A stretch of DNA of 21,392 nucleotides from Candidatus Auribacterota bacterium (GTDB taxonomy: Bacteria > Auribacterota > UBA6266): contig JAGLRQ010000078.1 in NCBI GenBank assembly GCA_023136205.1, positions 1 to 21,392 on the forward strand, in the 5' to 3' direction. The notes under the pieces are model-generated. The model was not told the DNA's origin. It made no database searches and saw nothing but the letters and a program-made list of their open reading frames with translations. The position numbers and the translations under genes are program-made. This document shows, one piece after another, positions 1 to 14,328 of this stretch (positions are counted from its first letter, which is position 1; the number at the start of each line of letters is the position of its first letter).

Positions 1-56
1 TCTAACAACAAAATGCACCGGACGGGAAAACACCGCCGGTGATTAAGACGTTGAAG
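1..56 (+). other. attC-like recombination site (short type, at window edge). Its R' box is occupied by the 168-bp repeat.
   Basis: R'' is TCTAAC (1-6), spacer AACAA, L'' AATGCACCGG (12-21). L'' pairs with L' CCGGTGATT (36-44), leaving one unpaired G15. The spacer AAGAC follows, then G50|TT. The present R' is GTTGAAG (50-56). Joining G50 to TTAGCA at 212 would give GTTAGCA, which complements R''. Confidence 0.6.
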
Positions 57-215
57 CTGTAGGATAAGTCAAAAGAAGAAAAATGGGCAAATTGTTCTTA
101 AAAAAGCTTTGCATAATTAGGGCTATAACCAACGATCTAAGGCCGTAACAGCATTTTACATGGGTTAAATTTTACAGATTTTTGAGGTGAGGGACTTTTC
201 CTACAGCCTCGTTAG
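48..215 (+). repeat. 168-bp repeat with inverted-repeat ends, copy 1 (mini-cassette or MITE-like element at the attC crossover point)
   Basis: Aligns over its full length with 1751-1918. By hand alignment there are 10 substitutions and two 1-nt indels. The ends CGTTGAAGCTGTAGGATAAGTC and GACTTTTCCTACAGCCTCGTTA are inverted repeats. Confidence 0.95.
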
Positions 216-230
216 CAATAAGGAAGAGAT

Positions 231-1043
231 ATGAAAGGGAAATACATTATTATTGGATGGGTTTTTCTATTTCTTGCTGGTGTAAATATATTGTTTTCTA
301 TACAGTTTCCAAGCAAACGTGATCCATCTATCGATATGCTGTTTGATTTTCCATCAATGTTAACTGTATTTTCAGCAATCGGATGGATCGTTGGTTATAA
401 TATATTCTCGATTGTTGCATTGATTATTGGTGTTATTCATTATTTCAAACACAAAAATTCTCTTGGTAGATTGGTTGTGATTTTATCTATTATGTTTATA
501 TTTTTAACATCTATAATTGGATTCTTTTATAATCCCGACAATAGATTAGACGTTGAACCATATGGCTTTACTTTCATAAGCCATGATAGTTCCGAATACA
601 AAATTGTTTTTTACAAAAAACCACAAGTGAGAAAAGCCACTACTCTTGGGGTACAATCGTATATATATGAAACAGGTACTTCTGGAGTTCTTCCATCTCT
701 TAAACGAGCAGAATTTATACCATTATCAGACACTGCAGCTTTTAGCTCTAATTTAGAAGAAACAATAAAAATATTTTCAAATATATCTGGATTAAAAACC
801 CCAAAAATAAAAATTGAAACGTCTCCTTTGGGGCAAAAGGGAAGTTATTCAGGAACAAAAATAATTAATAATCAAGAATTTTCTGTTAGGGGTGTTGTTT
901 ATGTTGGACAAGTATCAGCAATTCATGCATTGGAGATATACCCCAGTTCTGTCATTAGGGAGTTAGAAAGTATATCCCCAGGAGCAAGCGACTCGTCGTT
1001 TTTAAGTAGTATTAGATTTAAAAACAAGTTCGAAGGAAAATAG
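231..1043 (+). CDS. Hypothetical membrane protein: hydrophobic N-terminal half with several TM helices, soluble C-terminal half
   Basis: 270-aa ORF with AAGGAAGAG upstream of the ATG. Hydrophobic segments in about the first 100 residues. No family recognised. Confidence 0.65.
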   Translation: MKGKYIIIGWVFLFLAGVNILFSIQFPSKRDPSIDMLFDFPSMLTVFSAIGWIVGYNIFSIVALIIGVIHYFKHKNSLGRLVVILSIMFIFLTSIIGFFYNPDNRLDVEPYGFTFISHDSSEYKIVFYKKPQVRKATTLGVQSYIYETGTSGVLPSLKRAEFIPLSDTAAFSSNLEETIKIFSNISGLKTPKIKIETSPLGQKGSYSGTKIINNQEFSVRGVVYVGQVSAIHALEIYPSSVIRELESISPGASDSSFLSSIRFKNKFEGK

Positions 1044-1046
1044 AAA

Positions 1047-1661
1047 ATGAATCTAGGGGAAATTATCATAACTAGTTTAGGTGGCTCTGCTGTTTTATTG
1101 ATGAGTATTGGATTTTTGGTTAGGTCAATTATTAATCATTTTTTATCTAAGGATGTCGAAAAATTTAAAACTGATTTAAAATTATCTTCGGTGGAGCATG
1201 AAATAAGATTTTCAAAATTACAAGAAAAACGGGTAGAAAAAATCGAAGAAATATATCTAAGCCTACGATTTACTTTAGGAAAGGTTAAAGATTTTATTAA
1301 TCGTACGGAGAGAGATGTTGATCCATCAGAAAATTCAGACGAAAGGAAAGACAAAAAACAATATTTAGCTGTAGATGCTATAGAAAAAGTTTATAAAATA
1401 TTTGGAGACAATAAAATTTGGTTAGCAGGGGATGTTGTTGACAAGATAGAAAAATTAATGAATGTAGCCTATCTCCCTGCAATTGAGCTTGCAGATATTC
1501 GCAAGTATAGGAAAGATGAATCTATGCAAACGGAAATAATGAAAACTTGGAAGAATGCATGTGTAAAATTTGAAGAAGAAGCTCCTGTAATCCTGTGTTC
1601 CGTCGAAGAAGAGTTCCGACATATATTGGGTGTTATAGATATGAATAAAAAAAATTGCTAA
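1047..1661 (+). CDS. Hypothetical protein: one N-terminal TM helix followed by a charged, helical or coiled-coil-like region
   Basis: 204-aa ORF starting 3 nt after the stop of 231-1043, so both lie in the same cassette. GAAGGAAAA is upstream. The TAA stop overlaps the R'' box GCTAAC of the following attC. Confidence 0.65.
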   Translation: MNLGEIIITSLGGSAVLLMSIGFLVRSIINHFLSKDVEKFKTDLKLSSVEHEIRFSKLQEKRVEKIEEIYLSLRFTLGKVKDFINRTERDVDPSENSDERKDKKQYLAVDAIEKVYKIFGDNKIWLAGDVVDKIEKLMNVAYLPAIELADIRKYRKDESMQTEIMKTWKNACVKFEEEAPVILCSVEEEFRHILGVIDMNKKNC

Positions 1662-1759
1662 CAAAACGCTTAACTTGACCTTGAATTAGCGTTTGCGCAA
1701 AAATATAAATATTTTTGATTTCTGCATGTATGCAAGGCAAGTTAGCTTGAACGTTGAAG
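1656..1759 (+). other. attC-like recombination site (104 bp, conserved family). Its R' box is occupied by the 168-bp repeat.
   Basis: R'' TGCTAAC (1656-1662), spacer AAAAC, L'' GCTTAACTTGACCTTG. L'' pairs with L' CAAGGCAAGTTAGC (1733-1746), with two extra bases on the 5' arm. The spacer TTGAAC follows, then R' GTTGAAG (1753-1759). Joining G1753 to TTAGAT at 1915 gives a canonical GTTAGAT. Confidence 0.7.
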
Positions 1760-1918
1760 CTGTAGGATAAGTCAAAAGAAGAAAAATGAGCAAATTGTTC
1801 TTAAAAAAGTTTTGCATAATTAGGGCTATAACCAACGATCTTAGACAGTAGCAGCATTTTACATAGCCTGAATTTTACAGATTTTGAGGTTGAGGGACTT
1901 TTCCTACAGCCTCGTTAG
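1751..1918 (+). repeat. 168-bp repeat with inverted-repeat ends, copy 2
   Basis: Full-length match to 48-215. Its first 39 bp and last 50 bp are identical to the half-copies at 5603-5641 and 3972-4021. Confidence 0.95.
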
Positions 1919-1954
1919 ATTTGAAAATTTAAATATAACTTATGAGGCAATTAA

Positions 1955-2575
1955 ATGAAATACAATTGTTTAAAAGAAGTAACAAGATATTGGGATGATC
2001 TTCCTATAAGGCTTAAATTACAGGAAAAAACCCCTGAGCAAGGGAAAAAATATTGGGCAATAAGCATAAGAACAACCTATTTAAATTCTACTAGAAAGAA
2101 CCGTCGGTTTTACTATTCGAAGAAAATAGGTTTTTGGACCATCCCCACAAAAATTATAGTTGAATTATTAAAAGAAGCAGAAGAAAAAGAACTTTTTGAC
2201 AAAATATATAACGATAAGTATGAGCGTTTTGAGGGAGGAACAGCATCATTTATTTATTCAGATAAAACTCCAGATTATCAAAAACATCTTAATAAAATTA
2301 CTTGTTTTAGCAAAAATGAACCTGAATGGATATTTAAAAAACCATTTTTTGTAATTAGCCAAGAGCCTGGAAATACTTGGAGAAAGATAATGATTGTGAA
2401 GCAAGATTTTTCCTTAATAACCTTTCGTTCATGTACTACAGAAAAAACATATAGGCCAAAAATTTATATGGAGGATGATTCTCTTTGGTTCGTGGATAAT
2501 GCGATGATGGATGTTAGTGTGCAAGTAATGAAGATATTTAAAGAGCGTTTATTTGCATTAACCCAGTCGATTTGA
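1955..2575 (+). CDS. Hypothetical cytoplasmic protein (cassette ORF)
   Basis: 206-aa ORF with GAGG 7 nt upstream of the ATG. No TM segment or signal peptide. No family recognised. Confidence 0.6.
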   Translation: MKYNCLKEVTRYWDDLPIRLKLQEKTPEQGKKYWAISIRTTYLNSTRKNRRFYYSKKIGFWTIPTKIIVELLKEAEEKELFDKIYNDKYERFEGGTASFIYSDKTPDYQKHLNKITCFSKNEPEWIFKKPFFVISQEPGNTWRKIMIVKQDFSLITFRSCTTEKTYRPKIYMEDDSLWFVDNAMMDVSVQVMKIFKERLFALTQSI

Positions 2576-2590
2576 AAAGGTTTACGAAAA

Positions 2591-2694
2591 ATCTAACAAG
2601 ACGTTTTGGTGGATGTTGAATAAGCGTTGACGCAAAAAAACAAGTTTTTTTGATTTCTACGTAGTCGCAACACCACTGAACTCAACAGTTAGAG
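2591..2694 (+). other. attC-like recombination site (104 bp, conserved family)
   Basis: R'' ATCTAAC (2591-2597) is a perfect RYYYAAC. Spacer AAGAC, then L'' GTTTTGGTGGATGTTG. L'' pairs with L' CAACACCACTGAAC, with extra bases on the 5' arm. Spacer TCAACA, then R' GTTAGAG (2688-2694), the exact complement of TCTAAC. Confidence 0.75.
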
Positions 2695-2705
2695 TGAGAT
2701 AATAA

Positions 2706-3563
2706 ATGAAAAGAATGGCGGTGATAATTCTAATAGTTGTATGTATATCTTCTGCGTTCATAAGTGTTGCGGATTCTTATGAGGATCAATTTTCTGAAGC
2801 TGTGCTGATGGACGCTTTTGAAAAAGGCCGTTCTTTGGTCATAGCTAATATCCTCTCAGTTCAAAAGAAGAAAGCACAGCATGGTGCTTTTTATTACTAC
2901 AAGGTTAACGTTGTCCATCCTGTGATTCTTGGTGATTTGTTAAATGAAGATCTTCAGGAACCAGTAGAACTGTTTGCAGGAGCCTCTTATGGTGACACAT
3001 TGGGAAAAGGAGAAACCTATGCTTTATTTATTACAAAAGACGCGCCATTCTTTTTTTGTTGGGCTCACAGGGATAACATGCAAAGAATTAATCTAAAAAA
3101 TAAGCAAGAGGTTAGCACGTTCATATCTAAGGCCGAACAAGTGTATGCAAAAACCTCTATTCGAAAGTTTCGGGATACTGAAGCTGGGGATACACCTACA
3201 CTGCCAAACATTCCTGTAGAGCTGAGAAAGATATGCGATACGTTCAGAAAGAAAGAGGAGAACCGAGCCAAATTGGCAAAAACTATTTACCAATCAGAAA
3301 TGGGCTCACGTCCTGATGAATCAAAAAGGTGGTCATCGGATAGAATATATCTCCCTCCCAAGATACTTTTTTCACGAAGTCAAGTTTTACATCTTTTAGG
3401 TAAGCCGACTCTAAAAATAGGCAGGACATATTGTTGGTTCTGCGGTATAGATGATACCAGTTCTCCTAAATATGTAGGAATGCTCACAGGTACATTTGAC
3501 CAAGATGAAAATCTAATTAGATTGATATACAATAGAGACAAAATATTAAAATGGCAGAAATAA
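2706..3563 (+). CDS. Hypothetical secreted protein (cassette ORF)
   Basis: 285-aa ORF with a signal-peptide-like N-terminus (MKRMAVIILIVVCISSAFISVADS). No family recognised. Confidence 0.6.
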   Translation: MKRMAVIILIVVCISSAFISVADSYEDQFSEAVLMDAFEKGRSLVIANILSVQKKKAQHGAFYYYKVNVVHPVILGDLLNEDLQEPVELFAGASYGDTLGKGETYALFITKDAPFFFCWAHRDNMQRINLKNKQEVSTFISKAEQVYAKTSIRKFRDTEAGDTPTLPNIPVELRKICDTFRKKEENRAKLAKTIYQSEMGSRPDESKRWSSDRIYLPPKILFSRSQVLHLLGKPTLKIGRTYCWFCGIDDTSSPKYVGMLTGTFDQDENLIRLIYNRDKILKWQK

Positions 3564-3627
3564 GAAACACTCCAAAATAGAAAACAGGGTCAAATCTTTA
3601 ATCTTGACAAATAAAAATGATAAAAAT

Positions 3628-3720
3628 TTCTAACAATTGCTTCCGACATTGAATAAGCGCTTGCGGCAATAAAATATTGATGTTATGCTTGCGCAACGCG
3701 GATGAAGCAGGCAATTAGTC
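3628..3720 (+). other. attC-like recombination site (93 bp, same family) with a variant R' box
   Basis: R'' TTCTAAC (3628-3634), spacer AATTG, L'' CTTCCGAC, L' GCGGATGAAG, spacer CAGGCA, R' ATTAGTC (3714-3720), which has A where the crossover G is expected. It shares the central module TTGAATAAGCG...TTGCG with the sites at 1656 and 2591. Confidence 0.55.
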
Positions 3721-3745
3721 CAATAAAACCGAAAGAAGATACATC

Positions 3746-3991
3746 ATGAAAAAAATATTATTTACACTATTAATTTTTTTGGCATTATCAAACATCACTT
3801 TCGCCAAAGAGTATCAAAGCTCCTATGGTTTTTCCATCGATGTGCCTGAACATTGGCTTGTATTAACACCTAATGAATTAAAAAATAATCCAGACTTATT
3901 TGATTTTGAAAACGCTGATTTCGGAGGAATAGATAAAACTCTATTGAAACAGGTTATAAACAAAATATGGTCTGAATTTTACAGATTTTGA
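3746..3991 (+). CDS. Signal-peptide protein, probably truncated or chimeric: its last 7 codons (the final one shared with the junction) and the stop come from the right half of the 168-bp repeat
   Basis: 81-aa ORF with signal peptide MKKILFTLLIFLALSNITFA. From 3972 the reading frame runs into sequence that is non-coding in the two full repeat copies, and it stops at a TGA inside that sequence. Confidence 0.5.
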   Translation: MKKILFTLLIFLALSNITFAKEYQSSYGFSIDVPEHWLVLTPNELKNNPDLFDFENADFGGIDKTLLKQVINKIWSEFYRF

Positions 3992-4021
3992 GGTTGAGGG
4001 ACTTTTCCTACAGCCTCGTTA
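3972..4021 (+). repeat. Right-end half-copy (50 bp) of the 168-bp repeat
   Basis: 50/50 identical to 1868-1917. Ends ...CCTACAGCCTCG|TTACGT. Confidence 0.95.
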
Positions 4022-4083
4022 CGTTATATGAAAAATAAAATTCTACCAGCGAACCCAATGATGAAACAAGAAAGGAATATATT

Positions 4084-4470
4084 ATGATAAAAATACCTGA
4101 AGAAGTTAAAATCGCAATCGATAAAACAAATCCTATATGCGTAGCAACTGTTAATAGCGAATATATACCGAATATAATATATGTTACGTTTTTAAAATAC
4201 ATAAATGACACAACTGTGGTTATAGCAGACAATAAACTTGTAAAAACAAAAAACAACGTATTATCTAATGCCAATCTCTCTTTTGTTGTACTTGATCCTG
4301 AAACAAAAAAATCATATCAATTAAAAGGGAAAACGGAATATATAAACGAAGGTGAAAAATATCAGGACGTTTTTAATTGGGTGCAGGAAAAAAGACCGGA
4401 TCTTCATCCTAAAGGTGCTTTATATGTAACCATTGACGAAATCTTTTCCGGAGACAAGAAAATAATATGA
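4084..4470 (+). CDS. Pyridoxamine 5'-phosphate oxidase-like (FMN-binding split-barrel) family protein
   Basis: 128 aa with the typical small PNPOx-like pattern: IPEEVK..I......CVATV......P....V.......D..VVIADN...KT..N......LSFVV.D......YQLKGK.EY...GE. AAAGGA lies upstream of the ATG. The gene is AT-rich like its neighbours. Confidence 0.7.
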   Translation: MIKIPEEVKIAIDKTNPICVATVNSEYIPNIIYVTFLKYINDTTVVIADNKLVKTKNNVLSNANLSFVVLDPETKKSYQLKGKTEYINEGEKYQDVFNWVQEKRPDLHPKGALYVTIDEIFSGDKKII

Positions 4471-4479
4471 GAATTAGCT
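4424..4479 (+). other. Possible degenerate attC site overlapping the 3' end of the PNPOx-like gene
   Basis: ATGTAAC (4424-4430) ... imperfect stem AATCTTTTC/GAAAATAAT ... 6-nt spacer ATGAGA ... ATTAGCT (4473-4479). The pairing is weak, and the crossover position has A instead of G, as at 3714. Confidence 0.3.
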
Positions 4480-4532
4480 TAAAGTCTTGAAATATGAACG
4501 GGGCACAAAAACAAACAGAAAGGGAATAGAGA

Positions 4533-5537
4533 ATGCATATTGGCGAGCTAATAAAGAAATCGCGAGGGGGCGAGGTGCTCTTACGTGAAGAACTTGTCTA
4601 CCTGCTTGGCCACGAGCCGAATTCGGCTGAAAACTACATGGTTATGGCTGAGGCAACCCGTATCTCGAAAGAGCTCTCAGATGGCAAGGCTGAAGTCCAT
4701 GCTCAATTCGCGATCAATCTCGCACCGTGTCCTTGCGACTGTCTCTTCTGCTCTTTCGCAAAAATTAACGGTGTATTCACCGAGGCGACAGAGTTGACCC
4801 CGGAGCAAGCCGTGGCCTACGCCCTCCAATTTGAGAATGACGGCGCGAATGCTGTTTTCATGATGTCAACGGCCAAGTATCCATTTGAAGGCTTCATAGA
4901 GATGTCGCAGGAGGTTAGGAACAATCTGATGCCCGAAACAACATTGATCGCTAACGTCGGTGACCAGTCGCTCAAGAATGCAGCCAAACTTAAGGAGGCT
5001 GGCTTTTCCGGTGTGTATCACGCCGTTCGCCTGCGGGAGGGAATAGACACCAGCCTTTCAGTGAAAAAGAGAAAAGAGAGTATCAGCAACTTTAAAGAAG
5101 TCGGTCTTGAGGTGGGCACATGCGTCGAACCCGTGGGCCCGGAACATACAAACGAAGAATTAGCTGAGATGATAGAATTCACGGCTTCCTTTAATCCCTC
5201 ATACAGCGGCGCAGCCAGGCGCATCCCCATTCATGGAACCGCAATAGCCAAACGCGGGGTGATCAACGAACTGCGTATGGCCCAAATAGTCGCGGTCACC
5301 CGATTGGGAATGCCACGGACTGTAATGGGTAACTGTACACATGAGCCTTGTACTCTGGGTGCGATCGCCGGAGCAAATCTCTTCTGGGCGGAAGTCGGTG
5401 CCAATCCCAGAGATACTGAGGAGAAGACAGAGGAAGGCAGAGGGGAAACCGTTAGTGACTGCAGTTCTATTTTTCAGGAAAGCAATTGGGACGTCTGGAG
5501 CGGTCCATCACGCTATTACAATGGAAGTTCATCATAG
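4533..5537 (+). CDS. Radical SAM enzyme, biotin synthase (BioB)/HydE/ThiH-like family
   Basis: 334 aa. CxxxCxxC cluster motif C-PCD-C-LF-C within AINLAPCPCDCLFCSF. BioB-like C-terminal region (CTHEP...GAN.F). GC is about 53% by eye against about 27% for neighbouring cassettes. Confidence 0.8.
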   Translation: MHIGELIKKSRGGEVLLREELVYLLGHEPNSAENYMVMAEATRISKELSDGKAEVHAQFAINLAPCPCDCLFCSFAKINGVFTEATELTPEQAVAYALQFENDGANAVFMMSTAKYPFEGFIEMSQEVRNNLMPETTLIANVGDQSLKNAAKLKEAGFSGVYHAVRLREGIDTSLSVKKRKESISNFKEVGLEVGTCVEPVGPEHTNEELAEMIEFTASFNPSYSGAARRIPIHGTAIAKRGVINELRMAQIVAVTRLGMPRTVMGNCTHEPCTLGAIAGANLFWAEVGANPRDTEEKTEEGRGETVSDCSSIFQESNWDVWSGPSRYYNGSSS

Positions 5538-5538
5538 C

Positions 5539-5610
5539 ATCGAACAAGGCGCTACACCTGACCGCTATTCCGCTGCGCTCCATTACGGCAGGCGAGCTTG
5601 GTCGTTGAAG
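5539..5610 (+). other. attC-like recombination site (72 bp, GC-rich, belongs to the radical SAM cassette)
   Basis: R'' ATCGAAC (5539-5545) lies directly after the TAG stop. Spacer AAGGC, then L'' GCTACACCTGACCG. L'' pairs with L' CGGCAGGCGAGC, with extra bases on the 5' arm. Spacer TTGGTC, then R' GTTGAAG (5604-5610), whose TTGAAG is the first 6 nt of the repeat's left end. Confidence 0.6.
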
Positions 5611-5641
5611 CTGTAGGATAAGTCAAAAGAAGAAAAATGAG
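5603..5641 (+). repeat. Left-end half-copy (39 bp) of the 168-bp repeat, supplying the 5' leader and ATG of the next ORF
   Basis: 39/39 identical to 1752-1790. Identity ends 2 nt after the ATG at 5637. Confidence 0.95.
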
Positions 5642-6371
5642 AATATTTTATAAACTTGTAAAAATATCTTTAATAGCTAGTTTGTTAAGCTATGTACTCT
5701 TTGTTCTTATATTTGCGGCGGCGGCGTTGCTTGTTGAATCACTATTCTTGCAAATAATTGCCGGAATAGTTTTAATAACGGCTCCTATATCTATGTCTTT
5801 CTTTTGGGGGTCTATGATCTATGATTGTGTAGTTACAATAGAAAACAGGAAAAAGATGGCATTATGGTTGTTATTAATAATATTCACAAATTTTACCGGT
5901 TCATTAATATATTACTTTGTTAAGAAAAGATATAGGTATGTCCCTGCGGGGGAGGTAACGGTAGAGGAAAAACAAGATATAAATTGGTGGGATAAAAATT
6001 GGAAGTGGATTGTCCCTGCCGGTTGCTTAACAATAGTATTGATATTTTTTATTTTCATAGGAGCTTTGTTTGTTGGAATAAGTTCTATAATGAAAGGAAT
6101 GGCTGTTTATAAATATCCTATGAAACTTGTGAATCAAAATGAAGGAATAACAGAACTTCTTGGGAGTCCTATAGAGTCCACTTTTATGATGCAAGGGGAT
6201 GTTTCGACAAAGGGAGATTCCGGAATAGCTGATTTATTAATTCCTGTAAAAGGCCCTAAAGGCACGGGGACAATATATGTTAGTGCTGAAAAGAACTTGG
6301 GGCAGTGGGAATATATCACTTTAGAGATAAAAATAAAATCAACTTCTGAAAGAATTAATTTAATTGAATAA
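5637..6371 (+). CDS. Membrane protein with a PLDc_N-like short TM motif and a C-terminal Coa1-like (cytochrome oxidase assembly factor 1 family) domain
   Basis: 244 aa with multiple N-terminal TM helices. LLLIIFTNFTGSLIYYFVKKR resembles the PLD-nuclease N-terminal motif. The C-terminus (V..N..I.ELLGSPI......GD.S..G..G.A.L.IPVKGPKG.GTIYV.A.K..G.WEY..L) resembles Coa1-family domains. No attC is recognisable downstream. Confidence 0.55.
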   Translation: MRIFYKLVKISLIASLLSYVLFVLIFAAAALLVESLFLQIIAGIVLITAPISMSFFWGSMIYDCVVTIENRKKMALWLLLIIFTNFTGSLIYYFVKKRYRYVPAGEVTVEEKQDINWWDKNWKWIVPAGCLTIVLIFFIFIGALFVGISSIMKGMAVYKYPMKLVNQNEGITELLGSPIESTFMMQGDVSTKGDSGIADLLIPVKGPKGTGTIYVSAEKNLGQWEYITLEIKIKSTSERINLIE

Positions 6372-6429
6372 ATTGAGCAAACGGAAACATAGATAACACT
6401 TTCTTCCGGGTACATGGGTAACACTAATT

Positions 6430-7605
6430 TTAATCTTCAAAGATTTTATCAAAGTTACCGGTTTCCCGCATTAGTTTCCGCCATTTACAAACAAAATCAT
6501 TGTACCTTTCAAACACCTTTTCTTCTTTTTCGTAGGCAGACTCAAGCGTCGAAACAAGTTTCTCCGTTTTCTCCGCAAGATCACTTTTTGCGGTTTTATT
6601 ATATTGTAATGTTAAAAGTTTGCCTGCCGCCCTCACGTTCGGGATTAAGGTGCTTTCAAGAAATTTAGCCGGATAGGGCTGCAGCGAAGATATAGGGACA
6701 GGGACAAAACCTTCTTTCGCTTCAGGTTGAGTTTTTAGCTTTTTCCTTATATGCATGAACCCCATCGCGTCCCTTTTAAAACACTCCCATTCTTCCGGCT
6801 TCTCAGGAACAGAACAGCTCTTTACACAAAATTTCTCATCTAAAATAAATTCAAACCCATACATTCTTGAAGATATCAGATAATCAATATCTTCCTTTCC
6901 CAGAATAAAGGGGTCATAAGGAATTTTCTCAAATAATTTTCTATGAACTACCGTGTTTCCTTCTAAAAACATGTTTCCCCTGTTGTCATTAAACAACTCC
7001 TCAACAACAGAAGATTCATCCCATGATTTCTCCTTCCACTCCGGAAGTTTTTCCTTCACGCCCTCAACACATGAACAACCCATTGCTCCATATACCGCGC
7101 TTTCACCCTTAAGAGCCCGTCCAATATTTTTAGTGGCCAGCTCCAGCCAATCAGGCAATTCAATAAGCGAGTTATCTTTAAGTATTATCGCAATTTCGGC
7201 TCCCAAAACATGGGCCGCAAGCAAACCTAAATTTTTTATCTGGCCGGGATTTCCGTATTCAATATGCTCCGTAAGCTCTCCAAACCCCTTAATCGTAAGC
7301 AGGTCTCTCACCCTTGTCATCTGCCGGAGAGCAAAAAGTTTCACATCCAGAAATTCTTTATATGGATCAATAAGTACCTGAAGCTTCTTCTGCATCTGTA
7401 TATCATAACCCTTGTGATTAGACACTCCAAGGAGGACAACCGCAAAATCTTTATCATTCAGCTTTTTTAAACTATCCAATAGATTGATTACAGGGCACTG
7501 GCCGTCCAGAGGTGTAAAATGCTCCAATACAAAATCTTTCCTGGCAGACTTAACATGTTCGAGGGGCGGCCCCCAGTAAGTTGGTATCACAAACACTTTT
7601 TTCAA
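6430..7605 (-). CDS. Hypothetical protein, possibly a glycosyltransferase-like fold. Last gene of the polX-nth operon.
   Basis: 391-aa ORF with a TTG start, preceded by GAAGGAGA 6 nt upstream. It begins 28 nt after the nth stop. The N-terminal VFVIPTYW resembles GT-A starts, but I cannot see a clear DxD motif. Confidence 0.6.
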   Translation of the reverse strand: MKKVFVIPTYWGPPLEHVKSARKDFVLEHFTPLDGQCPVINLLDSLKKLNDKDFAVVLLGVSNHKGYDIQMQKKLQVLIDPYKEFLDVKLFALRQMTRVRDLLTIKGFGELTEHIEYGNPGQIKNLGLLAAHVLGAEIAIILKDNSLIELPDWLELATKNIGRALKGESAVYGAMGCSCVEGVKEKLPEWKEKSWDESSVVEELFNDNRGNMFLEGNTVVHRKLFEKIPYDPFILGKEDIDYLISSRMYGFEFILDEKFCVKSCSVPEKPEEWECFKRDAMGFMHIRKKLKTQPEAKEGFVPVPISSLQPYPAKFLESTLIPNVRAAGKLLTLQYNKTAKSDLAEKTEKLVSTLESAYEKEEKVFERYNDFVCKWRKLMRETGNFDKIFED

Positions 7606-7633
7606 AATAATCTCCTTCTGCTGCCTGATTCTT

Positions 7634-8272
7634 TTATCCCGTCTTTCCCTTATAACTGCAAAGTTTTTCTATTATACACTTATCGCATAGCGGCTTTCGA
7701 GCTTTACAGATATTTCTTCCATGAGAAATTAAAAAATGTGACATCATTGTCCATTTGTTCTTGTCTATTATCTTCATTATATCAAATTCTATTTTTACAG
7801 GGTTTTTATTTTTTGATAAACCGATACGATTAGTCAGGCGTAAAACATGTGTATCCACCGCTATCCCGGGAATCGCGAAAGCATTTCCCAGCACAACATT
7901 AGCAGTTTTCCTGCCTATCCCGGGAAGGCCTTTAAGTTCTTCCATCGTTGAGGGAACCTCCGCTTGAAAATTTTCAACTATCTCCTTACAGCAGGCAATT
8001 ACATTTTTAGCTTTATTCCTGAAAAACCCGGTACTCCTTATCTCCTGCTCAAGTTCAGGCTGCTTTGCCCCGGCAAAAGCGGCAATACTTGGATATTTCT
8101 TAAAAAGGGCCGGTGTTACTTTATTAACTCTCACATCGGTACATTGCGCGGATAAAATCGTAGCTATCAAAAGCTGGAATGGTTTTTTGAAATTCAAAGC
8201 AGTTTTTGCATCGGGATATTCCTTTAAAAGCAATTTGTAAACTTTATCAGCCTTATGCTGTAAATTCATCAA
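7634..8272 (-). CDS. nth: Endonuclease III (DNA-(apurinic or apyrimidinic site) lyase)
   Basis: 212 aa. HhH-GPD motif LPGIGRKTANVVL and a C-terminal 4Fe-4S cluster loop C-x6-C-x2-C-x5-C (CKARKPLCDKCIIEKLC). GGAGA Shine-Dalgarno sequence. Confidence 0.92.
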   Translation of the reverse strand: MMNLQHKADKVYKLLLKEYPDAKTALNFKKPFQLLIATILSAQCTDVRVNKVTPALFKKYPSIAAFAGAKQPELEQEIRSTGFFRNKAKNVIACCKEIVENFQAEVPSTMEELKGLPGIGRKTANVVLGNAFAIPGIAVDTHVLRLTNRIGLSKNKNPVKIEFDIMKIIDKNKWTMMSHFLISHGRNICKARKPLCDKCIIEKLCSYKGKTG

Positions 8273-8316
8273 ATATCTCCGTGTTTAGTATCTCGCATTT
8301 CGTAGATAGTTTTTTC

Positions 8317-8351
8317 GATTCACGATTCACTATTCACCATTCACCATTCAC
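8317..8351 (-). repeat. Five tandem heptamers, (GTGAATN)5 on the coding strand, between the polX stop and the nth start
   Basis: Plus strand reads GATTCAC GATTCAC TATTCAC CATTCAC CATTCAC. It overlaps the polX TGA stop at 8348-8350. Confidence 0.85.
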
Positions 8352-10084
8352 TGCCTTTTAATATTATCAAAAAACTTTTTAATCTCACCGGCGGATTTCA
8401 CATTCAATATGTCTTTTTTCTCAAGCCATCCTTTCCTTGCAATTCCTACTCCATACTTTATGTCTTTTACGCCCTCCATATCATGGGCATCGGGGTTGAT
8501 TGAAACCGGGACACCAAGTTCTTTAGCCATTTTGCAGTACCGCCAGTCAAGATCTAACCTGTGAGGATTGGCATTTAATTCGATAGCCTTGTTTTCCCCT
8601 GCCAGGGCTTTAAGAATTTTTTCAACGTCTACTTCATAACCGGTGCGGCTCAGGAGCAGTCTTCCTGTAAGATGGCCGATCATTGTCGTGTAAGGATTTT
8701 TCACTGCTTTAATAATTCTTTTTGTCATTTCATCTTTTGACATTTTAAATTTGCTATGAATTGCCGCCACTATAAAATCAAAATCTCTTAAAATATTTTC
8801 ATCGTAATCAAGAGACCCGTCAGGAAGTATGTCCGACTCTATCCCCTTAAATACAACAAACCCTGTTAATTTCTTGTTAAGCGCGTCTATTTGTTCCCAC
8901 TGCTCTTTAACCCTCTTTTCTTCAAGGCCCCCGGCATAATGAGCGCTCTTTGAGTGGTCGCCTATTCCCAGGTATGAATACCCCTTTCTCTTTGCAAACG
9001 CAGCCATATCATCAAGAGATGCTTTTCCATCAGACGCAATTGTGTGAACATGAATTACGCCCTTAATATCTTTTTCCTCAATCAGAGCAGGGATTTTACC
9101 GGCGGCGGCAAGCTCTATCTCCCCGCGATCTTCTCTCAGCTCAGGCGGGATAAAAGACAACCCCAGCTTCGAAAAAATCTCCTTTTCATCTTTACAGGAG
9201 ATATTTTTGTCCCCCTTAAAAAGGCCGTATTCGTTCATTTTGAGGCCCTTACTTTTTGAGAGAGCTCTCATTGCCGTGTTGTGCTCTTTGCTTCCGGTAA
9301 AGTGATGAAGGGCATAAGGATATTTTTGATCCGGGACTATCCTTATGTCAGCATTGATGCCTGACTTAAGTTTTACACTGGTTTTCGTCGGGCCTTTTGC
9401 TATTACCTCATCAACCTGGGAAAGAGAACTAAACGCGTCCATTACCGGTTCGGATTGCGAAGACCCGGCCACAAAGTCTATATCCCCGACAATTTCTTTC
9501 CGCCTCCGCAAACTTCCGGCAATTTCCATCCTGTTTATTTTTTTACCGGCTTTTTTCTTAAGCTCTGCCATCAGTTTCTCCGCTTCTTCCAAAGCTGTTG
9601 ATACATGAAAGCGATCACTGTAAGACATATGGTATTTTATTCCTTTGAGAATATTTTCCTGCGTCTTTTCTCCAAACCCTTCGATTGAAACCAGGCGGTT
9701 TTCCCTGCAGGCATGTTCCAGCTCTCCGAGTGTTTTAATCCTTAGCTTTTCATAAAGCACATGAATTTTTTTAGGGCCAAGCCCTTCAATGGCAAGCATC
9801 TCAAAAACACCGGGAGGGATCGAGTCCTTAAGCTCATCATAGTACTTTATATGGCCGGATGAAAAAAATTCTTCTATTTTTTCCGCTATGCCTTTCCCAA
9901 TATCTTTTATGGACAACAGCTCTTTGTTTTTTACCGCGTCATCCAGAGAGCCCTGGAACTGCTCAAGAGACCTGACCGCGTTAAGATACGCCCTGATTTT
10001 AAAAGGGTTTTCCTTTTTAAGCTCCATGAGGGCCCCGATATTTTCCAGAACCTCTAACAATTTACTTTTATCAAGCTTGCTCAT
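8348..10084 (-). CDS. polX: PolX-family DNA polymerase / 3'-5' exonuclease with a C-terminal PHP domain
   Basis: 578 aa. The N-terminal pol-beta-like core has HhH motifs (GIGKGIAEKI, GLGPKK, GFGEKT) and the nucleotidyltransferase motif GSLRRRKEIVGDIDF. The C-terminal PHP domain has HVHT..SDG ... GDHS. Confidence 0.9.
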   Translation of the reverse strand: MSKLDKSKLLEVLENIGALMELKKENPFKIRAYLNAVRSLEQFQGSLDDAVKNKELLSIKDIGKGIAEKIEEFFSSGHIKYYDELKDSIPPGVFEMLAIEGLGPKKIHVLYEKLRIKTLGELEHACRENRLVSIEGFGEKTQENILKGIKYHMSYSDRFHVSTALEEAEKLMAELKKKAGKKINRMEIAGSLRRRKEIVGDIDFVAGSSQSEPVMDAFSSLSQVDEVIAKGPTKTSVKLKSGINADIRIVPDQKYPYALHHFTGSKEHNTAMRALSKSKGLKMNEYGLFKGDKNISCKDEKEIFSKLGLSFIPPELREDRGEIELAAAGKIPALIEEKDIKGVIHVHTIASDGKASLDDMAAFAKRKGYSYLGIGDHSKSAHYAGGLEEKRVKEQWEQIDALNKKLTGFVVFKGIESDILPDGSLDYDENILRDFDFIVAAIHSKFKMSKDEMTKRIIKAVKNPYTTMIGHLTGRLLLSRTGYEVDVEKILKALAGENKAIELNANPHRLDLDWRYCKMAKELGVPVSINPDAHDMEGVKDIKYGVGIARKGWLEKKDILNVKSAGEIKKFFDNIKRQ

Positions 10085-10209
10085 AATTTAATTTAAAAGA
10101 TAAGGGAATTTATGTATAATACCGTTTATTGAGATTATAGGCTTTTTTAGTTATTTTTGAAAAACAAAAAAGAAAAGAGTGTAAAACACAGGACATAAGT
10201 GAATTAATA

Positions 10210-10764
10210 ATGGAAAAACTTATCAGGCAACTTTTAAAAGAAATAGGGGAAAACCCAAACAGGGAAGGGCTGATTAAAACTCCCCAAAGGGTAGAGCAGT
10301 CATTAAAATTCCTCACAAAAGGATATAAAGAAGACCCTGTAAAACTACTGCAGGATTCTGTGTTCGAAGAAAAATATGATGAAATGGTCATTCTGAAAGA
10401 TATTGAACTCTTCAGCCTTTGTGAACACCATCTTATGCCTTTTTACGGGAAATGTCATGTAGCCTACATACCCGACAATAAAGTTATAGGCCTTTCAAAA
10501 ATCCCCCGTCTCGTTGAAATCTACAGCAGAAGGCTTCAAATTCAGGAAAGGCTCACAACTCAAATAGCACATACTTTCCAAAAAGTTGTAAAACCTCTCG
10601 GGGTTGCAGTTGTCGTCGAAGCATTCCATCTCTGTATGGCAATGAGAGGGGTAGAAAAGAAAAATGCTTACTGCACAACCAGCGCAATGCTTGGAGCTTT
10701 CCGTAAAAACAGCAAAACGCGGATGGAATTCATAAACCTCATAAGCAGCAAAAGGCCTTTTTAA
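10210..10764 (+). CDS. folE: GTP cyclohydrolase I
   Basis: 184 aa. Conserved REGL..TP.R, CEHHL.PF.G...V.Y.P...V.GLSK..R and RLQ.QERLT motifs. Confidence 0.92.
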
Positions 10765-10767
10765 AAA

Positions 10768-11484
10768 GTGACTCCGGAAACAACAAATATTTCTTATTTA
10801 CTTGCCTTTATATACGGATTTCTTTCTTTTATGTCCCCCTGTGTTTTTCCTTTGATACCATTTTATATTTCTTTTATAACCGGAATATCATTTAACGAAT
10901 TATCCGATTCAAAAGCCCGAAGAAAAATTTTCTTACATACCTTTTTCAGTTCAATACTGTTTGTTCTGGGTTTTTCAGCTGTATTTATAAGCCTGGGAGC
11001 ATCAGCTTCGGTGATAGCAAAAGCTTTCGAAGGGGCAAAAAGGGCAATAGAACTTACGGGGGGAATATTACTTGTCATTTTCGGGCTTCACCTGTGCAAT
11101 ATAATAAAAATTCCTTTCCTGAATTTTGAAAAAAAAATACACTTTAAAAAAAGGCCTTTAGGGGCGCTTGCGCCTTTTCTCTTCGGCCTTATTTTTGCTG
11201 CCGGCTGGACACCCTGCATAGGGCCCCTTGCTGCCGCCGTCATCACTTCTTCCAGCCAGGTAAACAATATTTATCATGCTATGGGATTAATGTTTGTCTT
11301 TTCGCTTGGGATAGGGCTCCCCTTTATTATAATCGCAATGGCATTTAACATATTTCTAAATTTCAGTTCCATAATCCGCAAGCATTTAAACAAGATTCAA
11401 TTAGTTTCCGGGATCTTGATCATAATCACGGGCATTCTCTTTATTTTTAATAAATTCGAAGTTATAATTAGTATAATGTATTAG
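10768..11484 (+). CDS. ccdA: Cytochrome c biogenesis / thiol:disulfide electron-transfer membrane protein, CcdA (DsbD transmembrane domain) family
   Basis: 238 aa. GTG start 3 nt after the folE stop. Polytopic, with both conserved Cys motifs (SFMSPCVFPLIP and GWTPCIGP). Confidence 0.85.
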   Translation: MTPETTNISYLLAFIYGFLSFMSPCVFPLIPFYISFITGISFNELSDSKARRKIFLHTFFSSILFVLGFSAVFISLGASASVIAKAFEGAKRAIELTGGILLVIFGLHLCNIIKIPFLNFEKKIHFKKRPLGALAPFLFGLIFAAGWTPCIGPLAAAVITSSSQVNNIYHAMGLMFVFSLGIGLPFIIIAMAFNIFLNFSSIIRKHLNKIQLVSGILIIITGILFIFNKFEVIISIMY

Positions 11485-11510
11485 AGAATAATTATCTATG
11501 GAGGTGAAAA

Positions 11511-11813
11511 ATGAAACTTCTCAAGCTCGTGTTAATCTTCGTTATAGTTTTCTCAGCTGTTTCCCTGTCTTATGGGGCGGAAAGAGTTATCAGAAGAACT
11601 TACTATTCCGAAAGCCCGTCTTATGAAGAAGTCATTATACCCGAACCTTATTATCAACCTACCACAATAATTACCAGGCCGGGTGAAATAAACAGGGTAA
11701 TTGTGTATCCTTCGAGAAGAATTATTATCAATCCAAACAGGGGATATATTTACAGTACCGGCACTTATTCAACAACGACAATTTCGGAAGAAACCGTGGA
11801 AATAGTTGAGTAG
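11511..11813 (+). CDS. Small exported hypothetical protein
   Basis: 100 aa. GGAGGTGA Shine-Dalgarno sequence. Signal peptide MKLLKLVLIFVIVFSAVSLSYGA. Confidence 0.55.
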   Translation: MKLLKLVLIFVIVFSAVSLSYGAERVIRRTYYSESPSYEEVIIPEPYYQPTTIITRPGEINRVIVYPSRRIIINPNRGYIYSTGTYSTTTISEETVEIVE

Positions 11814-11856
11814 CGAATAGAAACAATTTATTTGCTAGATACGAGATACTGCTTCT

Positions 11857-12111
11857 CTAATGGATACGATTATTTAAGGGGATATGTAATGTTTTTCCTT
11901 TGAGTGATTCGGATATTTCTTCTAACGCATAGCCCGGTTCAGCAAAGTCACCCCCGAACCCAACTGTATTGGAAACGAAGAAAGAGACCAAGTGCTTCAT
12001 TTTATCAAAAACTTCTTCCAAATCTACTCCTCGAGTTGAAACCCCTAACTCAGAGCATTTTGCTTCGAACCCACCATCATCTTTCTCTATTATCTCTATA
12101 GAAAAACGCAT
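11857..12111 (-). CDS. HicB-like / UPF0150-fold small protein (possible orphan antitoxin-like protein)
   Basis: 84 aa with an AAGGAG Shine-Dalgarno sequence. The N-terminal pattern MRFSIEIIEKDDGGFEAKCSELGVSTRGVDLEEVFDKMKHLV matches the HicB N-terminal domain pattern (f.v.ie....GGy.a...el.....G.tleEa). Confidence 0.5.
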   Translation of the reverse strand: MRFSIEIIEKDDGGFEAKCSELGVSTRGVDLEEVFDKMKHLVSFFVSNTVGFGGDFAEPGYALEEISESLKGKTLHIPLNNRIH

Positions 12112-12134
12112 TTTCTTACTCCTTAACCTATTAA

Positions 12135-13061
12135 TTAAGTAGCTTCACAGATTTTTAACATTCTCTGCCATTCCTGGTCAACATCTTTTTGAATCTCTTC
12201 CAGCAAGGGCTTGTTTTCTTCTTTAAACAAGTGTTTAAAACGGCTTTGAGGCTTTAAAAACTCGGTTATGGGTTTTTTCCTGTCTTTGGGATTATAGTTA
12301 AGTTTATAAACCCCGTTTTCAACTTCAAAAACAGGCCAGAAACAAGTCTCTTTTGCCAGCCGCCCCATTTCAATCGTCCTGCTGGGTTCATAACCCCATC
12401 CAAGCCTGCACGGCTGAAAAACATTTATAAATGTAGGCCCTTTTATTGACAGGGCTTTCTCCACTTTTCTTGTCAGATCTGCCCAATCTCCCACCACTGC
12501 CTGTGCTACATAAGGAATATGATGCGCGACAAGAATTGCCGTAAAGTCTTTTCTTTTTTGAGTTTTCCCCTGTTCTACTTTCCCGGCAGGCGCGGTTGTA
12601 GTATTCGCTCCCTTAGGTGTAGCGCTTGACCTTTGAATACCCGTATTCATATAAGCACCGTTATCATAACAGACATAAAGCATATCATGGCCGCGCTCCA
12701 TTGCTCCGGAAAGTGCCTGGAGTCCTATATCATAGGTCCCACCGTCTCCGCCAAAAGCAATAAACTTAACCTCCTTATCATATCTTTTTTGCGCCTTTAA
12801 AGATTGATAACAGGCTTCTACTCCGCTTATTGTTGCCGCGGCATTTTCAAAAGCATTGTGTATAAAAGGTACATTCCATGCCGTAAAAGGAAATATCGTT
12901 GAAAAAACTTCAAGACACCCTGTGGCATTTGCTACCACGACATTTCCGTCAGTCGCCATCAGAACATGGCGCGCGACAATAGCGGCACCGCAACCGGCAC
13001 ATCCGCGGTGGCCGTTAGTAAAATATTCCGGTTTTTTTGCAAGCTCTTTTAACGTTGCCAT
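12135..13061 (-). CDS. porB: Pyruvate:ferredoxin (2-oxoacid:ferredoxin) oxidoreductase, beta subunit (TPP-binding)
   Basis: 308 aa. GCAGCG near the N-terminus, GGDGGTYDIG TPP-binding motif, AGGAGA Shine-Dalgarno sequence. Follows porA in porGDAB order. Confidence 0.9.
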   Translation of the reverse strand: MATLKELAKKPEYFTNGHRGCAGCGAAIVARHVLMATDGNVVVANATGCLEVFSTIFPFTAWNVPFIHNAFENAAATISGVEACYQSLKAQKRYDKEVKFIAFGGDGGTYDIGLQALSGAMERGHDMLYVCYDNGAYMNTGIQRSSATPKGANTTTAPAGKVEQGKTQKRKDFTAILVAHHIPYVAQAVVGDWADLTRKVEKALSIKGPTFINVFQPCRLGWGYEPSRTIEMGRLAKETCFWPVFEVENGVYKLNYNPKDRKKPITEFLKPQSRFKHLFKEENKPLLEEIQKDVDQEWQRMLKICEAT

Positions 13062-13070
13062 ATTTATCTC

Positions 13071-14258: not shown

Positions 14259-14328
14259 TTTAAACTCCTTATTGCGTGAAACTGTAATTTATAGAACAAA
14301 GTAAATATAAATTACTAAGATGAACGTA

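What the first reader, a model, noticed from the sequence alone, without database searches (positions are those of the whole stretch)
1..6371. Integron-type cassette array with no integrase in view
Seen in sequence:
- Five intergenic imperfect palindromes (1-56, 1656-1759, 2591-2694, 3628-3720, 5539-5610) start with xCTAAC/xCGAAC at or just after a stop codon. They end with GTTxxxx or ATTAGTC.
- Each can be parsed as R'', 5-nt unpaired spacer, L'' ... L', 5-6-nt spacer, R'.
- In four of the five, the unpaired extra bases lie on the R''/L'' arm. That asymmetry is what dictates bottom-strand recombination of attC sites.
- All ORFs share the + orientation and are far more AT-rich than the neighbouring core genes.

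Established knowledge: this is the architecture of integron attC sites and cassette arrays.

Inference:
- The integrase and attI, if present, lie left of position 1.
- The array ends at 6371, facing the convergent polX-nth-orf391 operon.
- Most cassette ORFs have no family I recognise, so this is a pool of uncharacterised adaptive genes.
Basis: partly seen in the sequence, partly recalled or inferred. Interest (0 to 1): 0.6.

Follow-up and report, generated by a model that had tools for sequence, protein, structure and literature searches.

The report
Integron cassette array colonised by attC-targeting transposons
This is a genuine integron-type gene-cassette array with no integrase nearby, in an uncultured Auribacterota bacterium; the array itself is ordinary, but its recombination sites are occupied by a transposon family that inserts exactly at the cassette crossover point, which I did not find described.

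Summary
The five palindromes are real, lie at the stated coordinates and are attC sites. A covariance model I built only from 17 class 1 plasmid attCs places all five among its six best window hits. All five are on the + strand. It finds none in 42 kb of core DNA from relatives.

- The recognisable array ends at 5606-5641, not 6371. ORF 5637-6371 is conserved in a sister strain that has no array.
- Contigs from the same lineage show more cassettes to the left. These run up to a core transporter gene, with no integrase at that border. What can be seen is therefore a CALIN-type array; an assembly gap remains.
There are two full copies and two fragments. Wherever the junction survives, it sits exactly at the GTT of R'.

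The parent element is an IS1182-family transposon. In 64 complete environmental copies it is flanked by GTT on both sides. In 45 loci an attC model hit ends at, or within 1 nt of, the expected position at its left end, always in one orientation. The papers I could search describe only IS1111-attC elements and group IIC-attC introns as attC-targeting.

The parts
1..56 (+). attC1 (R'' TCTAAC ... R' GTT at 50-52), short and GC-rich
   Evidence: R1 17.6 bits, E 0.016. R2 36.2 bits. Fold z-score -3.2. Contigs L001, L002 and L004 all start 3-9 nt upstream of it.
53..210 (+). MITE copy 1, 158 bp. Terminal inverted repeats are GAAGCTGTAGGATAAGTC and GACTTTTCCTACAGCCTC. Flanked by GTT at 50-52 and 211-213.
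   Evidence: Repeat families D1 and I6. The repeat pattern occurs 6 times against 0.05 expected.
231..1661 (+). Two-ORF cassette body (ORFs 231-1043 and 1047-1661). No family match. GC 31-32%.
1656..1759 (+). attC2, textbook architecture. The stop codon of the preceding ORF lies inside R''. R' GTT at 1753-1755.
   Evidence: R1 25.8 bits, E 1e-4, with alignment. R2 36.9 bits. Constrained fold.
1756..1913 (+). MITE copy 2, 158 bp, 92% identical to copy 1. Flanked by GTT at 1753-1755 and 1914-1916.
1955..2575 (+). Cassette ORF, 206 aa, no family match
2591..2694 (+). attC3, with no transposon inserted (single GTTAGAG at 2688-2694). Same sequence type as attC2 and attC4.
   Evidence: R1 10.9 bits over the full coordinates. 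Shared core TTGAATAAGCGYT, repeat family D4. Fold pairs TCTAAC with GTTAGA.
2706..3563 (+). Cassette ORF, 285 aa, no family match
3577..3720 (+). Conserved pre-attC module (3577-3627) plus attC4 (3628-3720). R' is degenerate: ATTAGTC.
   Evidence: 97% identical over 140 bp to L029 13610-13749. There the same attC ends in GTT followed by the IS. R1 gives only 9.3 bits, with an alternative 3' end.
3746..3991 (+). Cassette ORF, 81 aa, running into the MITE fragment. Probably truncated by a deletion.
3967..4017 (+). MITE right-end fragment, followed by GTT at 4018-4020
   Evidence: Repeat family D3, 96% identity. Repeat pattern match.
4084..5537 (+). Two ORFs with no attC between them. ORF 4084-4470 is PNPOx-like (GC 30%). 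ORF 4533-5537 is a BioB/HydE-like radical SAM protein (GC 51%).
   Evidence: Pfam PF01243 and PF04055. NCBIfam. GC values.
5539..5610 (+). attC5, GC-rich. R' GTT at 5604-5606. Last recognisable attC.
   Evidence: R1 16.8 bits, E 0.026. R2 38.1 bits.
5607..5641 (+). MITE left-end fragment. It is joined to the start of the Coa1-like gene through about 7 bp of microhomology (AAATGAG). This is a deletion junction and the right edge of the island.
   Evidence: Repeat family D2. Similarity to the sister strain begins at 5635. Sequences compared.
5637..6371 (+). Coa1/PLDc_N-like membrane protein gene. This is conserved flank, not a demonstrable cassette.
   Evidence: Present without the array in sister-strain loci L005, L026 and L027. 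Absent from more distant relatives. No attC hit downstream.

Best explanation
Window 1-5641 is the distal part of a chromosomal integron cassette array in a Candidatus Auribacterota (Aureabacteria) genome. The array occupies the interval between an AEC-family transporter gene and a Coa1-like gene. A sister strain that is 91-95% identical has nothing in that interval.

**Shown**
- Five attC sites, all in the same orientation, delimit four cassette intervals that carry + strand ORFs, mostly of unknown function.
- Contigs of the same lineage carry at least three more cassettes at the left end of the island. One of them is a PDC-M43 candidate phage-defence gene pair.
- No integron integrase is present in the window. 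None lies at the left border, and none lies in 10 kb of flanking core DNA.
- On what is visible, the array therefore meets the definition of a CALIN (cluster of attC sites lacking an integrase).

**Inferred from established integron biology**
- The bottom strands of these attC sites fold into the R-box, spacer and L-box hairpin with extrahelical bases.
- An IntI supplied in trans, from elsewhere in the genome, would excise and reshuffle the cassettes.

**Second layer: transposon colonisation (shown)**
- An attC-specific lineage of IS1182-family DDE transposons, and a 158-bp MITE derived from it, have colonised the array.
- These elements insert immediately after the GTT triplet of R', which is the IntI crossover triplet. 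They duplicate GTT and always sit in one orientation.
- The attC therefore keeps a GTT followed by purines from the transposon end.

**Second layer (inferred)**
- The transposon becomes the 5' end of the downstream cassette.
- Deletions starting from MITE copies truncated ORF 3746-3991 and created the right edge of the island.
For: **attC identity**
- An independent model trained on class 1 attCs finds all five sites on the + strand.
- It also finds the L029 site, at 30.6 bits, and nothing in 42 kb of related core DNA.
- A second model, built from 47 environmental attCs, gives 36-38 bits for three window sites.
- Model alignments and constrained folds show the canonical bulge position.

**Genomic context**
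- Similarity to the sister strain stops at window 5635 and at L029 10739.
- In the sister strain the transporter and Coa1-like genes are adjacent.
- The left end of the island carries cassettes with attCs and no intI.
- tblastn with IntI1 found nothing.
- L029 shares a 140-bp attC module with the window at 97% identity.
- Organism names come from cluster members.

**Transposon layer**
- MITE terminal repeats and GTT flanks in the window.
- The L029 element has matching terminal repeats. Its protein matches the N- and C-terminal parts of the IS1182 transposase profile.
- Among 64 complete copies from JGI metagenomes, GTT lies on the left in 61 and on the right in 60. One copy is flanked by TTT on both sides, which shows that the triplet is a target duplication. 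Right flanks read GTTAGGC and similar.
- The class 1 attC model has a hit ending exactly 3 nt into the element's left end in 30 loci. With filters off it adds 15 more, three of them within 1 nt.
- All 62 hits are on the transposase strand.
- One locus carries an IntI that is 56% identical to IntI1 beside the element.
- A relative with 45% identical transposase in a Pseudoalteromonas piscicida chromid sits in a cassette array at an attC with GTT on both sides.
Against: - Two of the five attCs score weakly: 10.9 and 9.3 bits. attC4 has ATT instead of GTT, so it may be inactive.
- Fold energies of sites 4 and 5 are no better than shuffles.
- IntegronFinder's own model could not be run.
- About half of the training set for the second model has the transposon end as its R' distal bases. 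This favours the three window sites that abut MITEs.
- The DNA between the end of L029 and window position 1 is unassembled, so an integrase there is not excluded.
- That L029 and the window belong to one island is inferred. The grounds are synteny, matching divergence from the sister strain, and shared repeats.
- No evidence of recombination activity was obtained. Contig breaks at attC borders could simply reflect repeats.
- Whether the attC-targeting IS1182 lineage is already recorded in ISfinder could not be checked.
Confidence: 0.8

Rival explanations
1. It is a complete sedentary chromosomal integron. Its integrase and attI lie in the unassembled stretch between the left-end cassettes (L029) and window position 1, or the window array belongs to a different locus that has its own integrase.
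For: All contigs carrying the first window ORF stop at attC1, so the DNA upstream of position 1 has not been seen. Cassettes are co-oriented as in complete integrons. Contigs from several samples end exactly at attC borders, which would fit ongoing cassette shuffling.
Against: - In integrons the integrase sits at the promoter-proximal end of the array. That end is visible in L029/L030, and it abuts a core transporter gene about 230 bp from the first cassette ORF.
- tblastn with IntI1 finds nothing in any contig of this lineage.
- An integrase in the middle of a co-oriented array would be unusual.
Confidence: 0.12
2. The palindromes are target hairpins or by-products of the IS1182/MITE family, or generic terminator or REP-like repeats. 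They are not integrase substrates.
For: - Three of the five sites abut a MITE.
- IS1272, an IS1182-family member, is reported to target inverted repeats.
- No integrase has been found.
- Fold energies are modest.
Against: - A model trained only on class 1 plasmid attCs recognises the sites with the right polarity and bulge position.
- Sites 3 and 4 have no transposon inserted.
- The sites sit at ORF ends.
- They are absent from 15 kb of window core DNA and from 42 kb of related core DNA.
- The same transposon lineage is found beside a bona fide IntI, and inside arrays of strong attC hits, in other organisms.
Confidence: 0.05
3. The 158-bp repeat is an ORF-less integron cassette moved by the integrase. 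It is not a transposon derivative.
For: It starts right after G|TT and ends with ...CTCG|TT, so its borders coincide with cassette borders. ORF-less cassettes and duplicated cassettes are common in chromosomal arrays.
Against: - It has no internal R''/L'' structure. Its ends pair with each other as 18-bp terminal inverted repeats.
- No attC model hit lies inside it.
- Its terminal repeats match those of an IS1182-family element inserted at the same position.
- That element shows a 3-bp target duplication in 60 of 64 copies, including one TTT/TTT case.
Confidence: 0.03

Closest known systems
CALIN (cluster of attC sites lacking an integron integrase) and cassette arrays of sedentary chromosomal integrons, as defined by IntegronFinder (Cury et al. 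2016, PMC4889954)
   Same: Co-oriented attC sites less than 4 kb apart, each after a + strand ORF. Cassettes are mostly of unknown function and AT-rich relative to the host. One cassette is a candidate phage-defence pair. No intI within reach. IS elements lie inside the array; the paper reports this for 12% of CALINs.
   Different: - The host is an uncultured Auribacterota lineage.
- The attCs are of at least three unrelated sequence types, unlike the uniform repeats of large Vibrio-type arrays.
- The array is absent from a sister strain that is 91-95% identical.
- CALIN status rests on an incomplete assembly.
IS1111-attC group (ISPa21, ISPst6, ISKpn4; Tetu & Holmes 2008; Post & Hall 2009; seekRNA work, PMC11187229)
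   Same: Insertion sequences that insert site-specifically and orientation-specifically at one end of integron attC sites.
   Different: - Per PMC11187229, those elements use a DEDD transposase guided by a seekRNA and have subterminal repeats. That they make no target duplication is my own recollection.
- The elements here encode an IS1182-family DDE transposase and have terminal 18-bp inverted repeats.
- They duplicate GTT at the crossover triplet.
- They have given rise to a MITE.
Group IIC-attC introns (PMC3001079)
   Same: Mobile elements that home into attC sites in one orientation and travel inside cassette arrays.
   Different: Those are retroelements with a ribozyme and a reverse transcriptase. 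Nothing of that kind is present here: there are no Rfam hits in 1-6400 and no RT ORF.
IS1272 and other IS1182-family elements (PMC5678879)
   Same: Same transposase family. IS1272 is reported to choose inverted-repeat (hairpin) targets.
   Different: - IS1272 is reported to leave no target duplication and to replace the inverted repeat.
- The present lineage inserts at the base of the attC hairpin and makes a 3-bp GTT duplication.
- Annotated IS1182-family transposases on plasmids are only about 26% identical to it.

Membership tests
Integron attC site | Inverse core sites R'' (RYYYAAC) and R' (GTTRRRY) at the two ends | tested here: met
   xCTAAC or xCGAAC at all five 5' ends. GTT at four 3' ends. 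attC4 has ATT, while its 97% identical twin in L029 has GTT.
Integron attC site | Second inverted pair L''/L', separated from the R boxes by unpaired spacers of about 5-6 nt, with extrahelical bases on the '' arm | tested here: met
   Model alignments place an unpaired base at the canonical L'' position in sites 1, 2, 3 and 5. Constrained DNA folds show bulges on the '' arm in sites 1-4. Site 5 is less clear.
Integron attC site | Detected by an attC covariance model | tested here: met
   - Home-made model from 17 class 1 attCs: E 1e-4, 0.016 and 0.026 for three sites; E 0.8 and 2.1 for the other two.
- Model from 47 environmental attCs: E 4.5e-6, 8.2e-6 and 1.1e-5 for three sites.
- IntegronFinder's own model was not available.
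Integron attC site | Recombined by an integron integrase as a folded bottom strand | not testable with these tools
   Needs a recombination assay.
CALIN / cassette array | At least two co-oriented attC sites less than 4 kb apart, with no intI within 4 kb | tested here: met
   Start-to-start spacings are 1655, 935, 1037 and 1911 bp, all on the + strand. No IntI-like sequence occurs in the 21-kb window or in contigs of the same lineage. The left side is limited by the contig end.
Complete integron | intI (a tyrosine recombinase with the IntI-specific insertion) next to attI and a cassette promoter | tested here: not met
   tblastn with IntI1 is negative. The left border of the island abuts a core transporter gene. 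The unassembled gap was not tested.
IS1182-family insertion sequence and derived MITE | IS1182-type DDE transposase; terminal inverted repeats; target duplication; for a MITE, a short non-coding multi-copy element with the same repeats | tested here: met
   - The L029 element matches NF033551 at positions 2-128 and 426-487, and also PF05598 and PF13751.
- 64 full copies of about 1.8 kb carry 18-bp terminal repeats and GTT/GTT flanks.
- The window MITE has matching repeats, is 158 bp long, and has four copies or fragments.
IS1111-attC group | DEDD (IS110/IS1111) transposase with subterminal repeats | tested here: not met
   The transposase is IS1182-type and the inverted repeats are terminal.
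REP/BIME-like genome-wide palindromes | Dispersed through intergenic regions of the whole genome | tested here: not met
   There are no comparable hits in window 6400-21392; the best there score 7-8 bits, at E above 4. There are none at E<=10 in 42 kb of related core loci.

The most novel reading that the evidence does not exclude
A widespread and apparently undescribed clade of IS1182-family DDE transposons, together with MITEs derived from it, is specialised for integron attC sites.

- It inserts in one orientation exactly at the IntI crossover triplet and duplicates GTT.
- Its own purine-rich end recreates an R'-like box.
- The attC may therefore stay usable, and the transposon could then ride as the 5' end of the next cassette.
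- Tandem copies that share a GTT (L064, L092, L118) suggest that the occupied attC can be targeted again.

This would be a second class of attC-targeting insertion sequence, mechanistically unrelated to IS1111-attC. It is also a likely source of the deletions and rearrangements that turn integrons into CALINs.
Probability: 0.5. Interest if true: 0.65.

Novelty: new member of a known kind. Interest (0 to 1): 0.5.

Why it matters
- **The array.** It adds an integrase-less cassette array in a little-known candidate phylum. It is present in one strain and absent from a 91-95% identical sister, so it is a recent and variable gene pool. One cassette in the same island is a candidate phage-defence pair.
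- **The transposon layer.** This is more interesting. It shows that a DDE transposon family has converged on the same target as the RNA-guided IS1111-attC elements and the group IIC-attC introns.
- **Consequences if confirmed.** It would explain part of the IS load and the decay of cassette arrays. It would offer a natural system for asking how a DDE transposase recognises a folded or sequence-defined attC. It would also provide a marker, the terminal repeat plus GTT, for finding attC sites in metagenomes.

Tried and rejected
- **Exact-match scans.** A 21-nt piece of the MITE end found nothing in GTDB genomes or JGI metagenomes.
- **Extending leftward.** Every contig carrying ORF 231-1043 starts at attC1. 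The gap between L029 and the window could not be bridged.
- **Rfam.** Only SRP RNA and two tRNAs were found, all in the core part.
- **Promoter and terminator scan of 1-6500.** Counts were at the shuffle level and nothing lay inside the MITE. An outward-promoter role for the MITE is therefore not supported.
- **Unconstrained ssDNA folding.** It does not separate top from bottom strands, and it is not significant for sites 4 and 5.
- **MAFFT alignment of the seven local attCs (A3).** It misaligned the 3' arms, so I did not use it for pair counting.
- **The 158-bp repeat as an ORF-less cassette.** Considered and rejected: it has no internal attC, and its ends pair with each other.
- **The ~165-bp left junction region in L029 as an attI.** It has no GTT crossover at the point where L025 and L029 diverge, so this is left open.
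- **L031.** It diverges from L029 inside the second cassette, at about 12690, into GC-rich sequence. This may be a chimeric assembly; I did not pursue it.
- **Protein search for an Auribacterota IntI.** I ran no further search on this, because hits cannot be filtered by organism.

Full report
**Observation.** Their 5' ends read TCTAAC, GCTAAC, TCTAAC, TCTAAC and TCGAAC. Four 3' ends carry GTT (50-52, 1753-1755, 2688-2690, 5604-5606). The fifth carries ATT (3714-3716). The stop codon of ORF 1047-1661 lies inside R'' of site 2, and the stop of ORF 4533-5537 lies 1 nt before site 5. Sites 2, 3 and 4 share an internal core (TTGAATAAGCGYT..., repeat family D4). Sites 1 and 5 are short, GC-rich and unrelated to the others. 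ORFs in 1-6371 are all on the + strand with GC 29-38%, against 41% for the core. The exception is radical SAM ORF 4533-5537 at 51%.

**Test against an independent attC model.** IntegronFinder was not available, so I built a substitute.
- I took 17 attC sites from class 1 integron arrays on enterobacterial, Pseudomonas and Serratia plasmids.
- I aligned them (A1) and imposed the canonical structure: R box, 5-nt spacer, L box with one unpaired base. From this I built model R1. No sequence from the window went into it.
The last hit is shifted because R' is ATT.
- The one intruder is 2903-2945 on the - strand, at 12.4 bits.
- The same model finds the L029 attC at 30.6 bits. It finds nothing at E<=10 in the 42 kb of core DNA in L026 and L035. 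This rules out a genome-wide REP-like family.
- A second model, R2, was built from 47 attCs that R1 found in unrelated metagenome loci. It gives 36-38 bits (E 4.5e-6 to 1.1e-5) for three window sites. About half of its training set has a transposon end as the distal R' bases, which favours exactly those three sites.
- Unconstrained fold energies are unremarkable for sites 4 and 5.

**Where the array sits.**
- The exact protein of ORF 231-1043 occurs only on short contigs from one sample series. All of them start at attC1 or inside the first MITE.
- A MAG with about 94% identical PolX (L005, L024) is colinear with the window from 5635 rightwards.
- In that sister strain the Coa1-like gene (window ORF 5637-6371) directly follows an AEC-family transporter gene, with no array.
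- More distant relatives lack even the Coa1-like gene.
- Cluster members name the organism Candidatus Aureabacteria/Auribacterota.
- A variant of the transporter protein found in the same sample series as the window leads to L029/L030. These two are 99.96% identical to each other and 93-95% identical to the sister strain.
- In L029/L030, similarity to the sister stops 24 bp after the transporter stop codon. What follows is:
  - a 269-aa ORF with a strong attC;
  - a two-gene cassette matching PADLOC PDC-M43A/B, ending in an attC that is 97% identical over 140 bp to window attC4;
  - an insertion sequence;
  - the start of another cassette.
- I infer that L029 is the left end and the window the right end of one island, with an unassembled gap between them.
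- tblastn with IntI1 finds nothing in any of these contigs.
- On what is visible, the array is a CALIN in the sense of Cury et al. 2016.

- A 158-bp element with 18-bp terminal inverted repeats (GAAGCTGTAGGATAAGTC / GACTTTTCCTACAGCCTC) occurs at 53-210 and 1756-1913.
- There is also a right-end fragment at 3967-4017 and a left-end fragment at 5607-5641.
- Every surviving left end abuts the GTT of an attC R'. Every surviving right end is followed by GTT and then AGCA, AGAT or ACGT, which looks like the rest of a GTTRRRY box.
- The fragment at 3967 cuts ORF 3746-3991.
- The fragment at 5607 is fused to the Coa1-like start codon region through about 7 bp of microhomology. The right edge of the island is therefore a deletion junction.

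**Its parent.**
- In L029 a 916-bp element has near-identical terminal repeats (GAAGCTGTAGAAAAAGTCC ... GGGTTTTTCTACAACCTC). It sits at the same place: attC...GTT | element | GTTAGAT.
- Its two ORF pieces match the N-terminal (2-128) and C-terminal (426-487) parts of the NCBIfam IS1182 transposase model, and also Pfam DUF772 and DDE_Tnp_1_6. It is an internally deleted IS1182-family element.

**How general this is.**
- Using its N-terminal 133 aa, I fetched 80 loci from JGI metagenomes, at 65-74% identity.
- In 71 of the 75 loci where a left end could be located, it is preceded by GTT, usually CGTT.
- 64 complete copies of about 1.8 kb are flanked by GTT on the left in 61 cases and on the right in 60.
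- One copy has TTT on both sides, and two copies have AGTT or TGTT on the left. The duplicated target is therefore the 3-bp GTT. Right flanks read GTTAGGC, GTTAGAA and similar.
- The class 1-trained model R1 has a hit ending exactly 3 nt into the left repeat in 30 loci. With filters off it adds 15 more, three of them within 1 nt.
- All 62 hits are on the transposase strand, and several loci are multi-attC arrays.
- L123 encodes an IntI that is 56% identical to IntI1 next to the element.
- A relative with 45% identical transposase in the 1.3-Mb chromid of Pseudoalteromonas piscicida 2515 lies in an array of attC hits (up to 42.9 bits). It sits at an attC with GTT on both sides.
- Other IS1182-family transposases on plasmids are only about 26% identical.
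- Three loci (L064, L092, L118) show two copies in tandem sharing a GTT.

**Mechanism.**
- *Shown:* the anatomy of the attCs, their restriction to the island, the absence of a nearby integrase, and the position, orientation and target duplication of the transposon.
- *Inferred from established integron biology:* the bottom strands fold and would be recombined by an IntI supplied in trans.
- *Inferred from the anatomy:* the transposon cuts at the crossover triplet. This leaves the attC with GTT plus a purine-rich transposon end, and makes the element part of the downstream cassette.
- *Unknown:* whether the transposase reads the hairpin or the sequence. IS1272, of the same family, is reported to target inverted repeats.

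**Comparison with what is known.**
- The papers I could search describe attC-targeting only for the IS1111-attC group and for group IIC-attC introns. Searches combining IS1182 with attC or integron returned nothing relevant.
- ISfinder and the original IS1111-attC papers could not be consulted. The claim that the lineage is undescribed is therefore provisional.

**Verdict.**
- The array itself is a new member of a known kind.
- The attC-specific IS1182 lineage and its MITE are the part worth following up.

Noticed in passing
window 53-210, 1756-1913, 3967-4017, 5607-5641; L029 13749-14664; L047-L127: A 158-bp MITE and its IS1182-family parent insert exactly at the GTT of attC R' and duplicate GTT, in one orientation. 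The same holds for 64 complete copies in unrelated metagenomes and for a Pseudoalteromonas piscicida chromid. I did not find this described in the papers I could search.
   Followed up: yes
L064 1-40; L092 1-20; L118 2937-2950: Two IS copies lie in tandem, separated only by a shared GTT. This suggests that an attC already carrying the element can be hit again.
   Followed up: no
window 3577-3720 and L029 13610-13749: A 140-bp module made of about 50 bp upstream sequence plus attC4 is 97% identical between two cassettes with unrelated genes. The upstream part carries the motif TAGAAAACRGGGTC, once in the window and three times in L029.
   Followed up: partly
L029 11943-13536: The two-gene cassette at the left end of the island matches the PADLOC candidate defence system PDC-M43 (M43A E 3e-34, M43B E 3e-31).
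   Followed up: partly
window 4084-5537: A PNPOx-like ORF (GC 30%) and a BioB/HydE-like radical SAM ORF (GC 51%) share one cassette interval with no attC between them. The composition jump suggests two fused cassettes or a lost attC.
   Followed up: no
L029 10742-10905 versus L025: About 165 bp at the left edge of the island is shared by contigs that then diverge into different first genes. The divergence point has no GTT, so it does not look like a standard attI junction. It is unexplained.
   Followed up: partly
window 6395-6420: About 25 bp just downstream of the Coa1-like gene is absent from the sister strain. It looks like a local duplication around GATAACACT/GGTAACACT.
   Followed up: no
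window 18104-18523 and 19330-19415: A large bacterial SRP RNA (147 bits) lies next to a tRNA and upstream of what look like dnaX, ybaB and recR (names inferred from gene order; relatives' orthologues carry YbaB and RecR Pfam domains). A second tRNA lies at 19330-19415. This is ordinary core context.
   Followed up: no
L031 12690-12926: One contig diverges from L029 inside the second cassette into GC-rich sequence ending in a terminator-like hairpin. It may be an assembly chimera or a real rearrangement.
   Followed up: no
L045 10400-11653: In a class 1 array fetched as training material, a group II intron ORF sits immediately after dfrA14, where its attC would be. This is a known phenomenon and a useful contrast to the transposon found here.
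   Followed up: no
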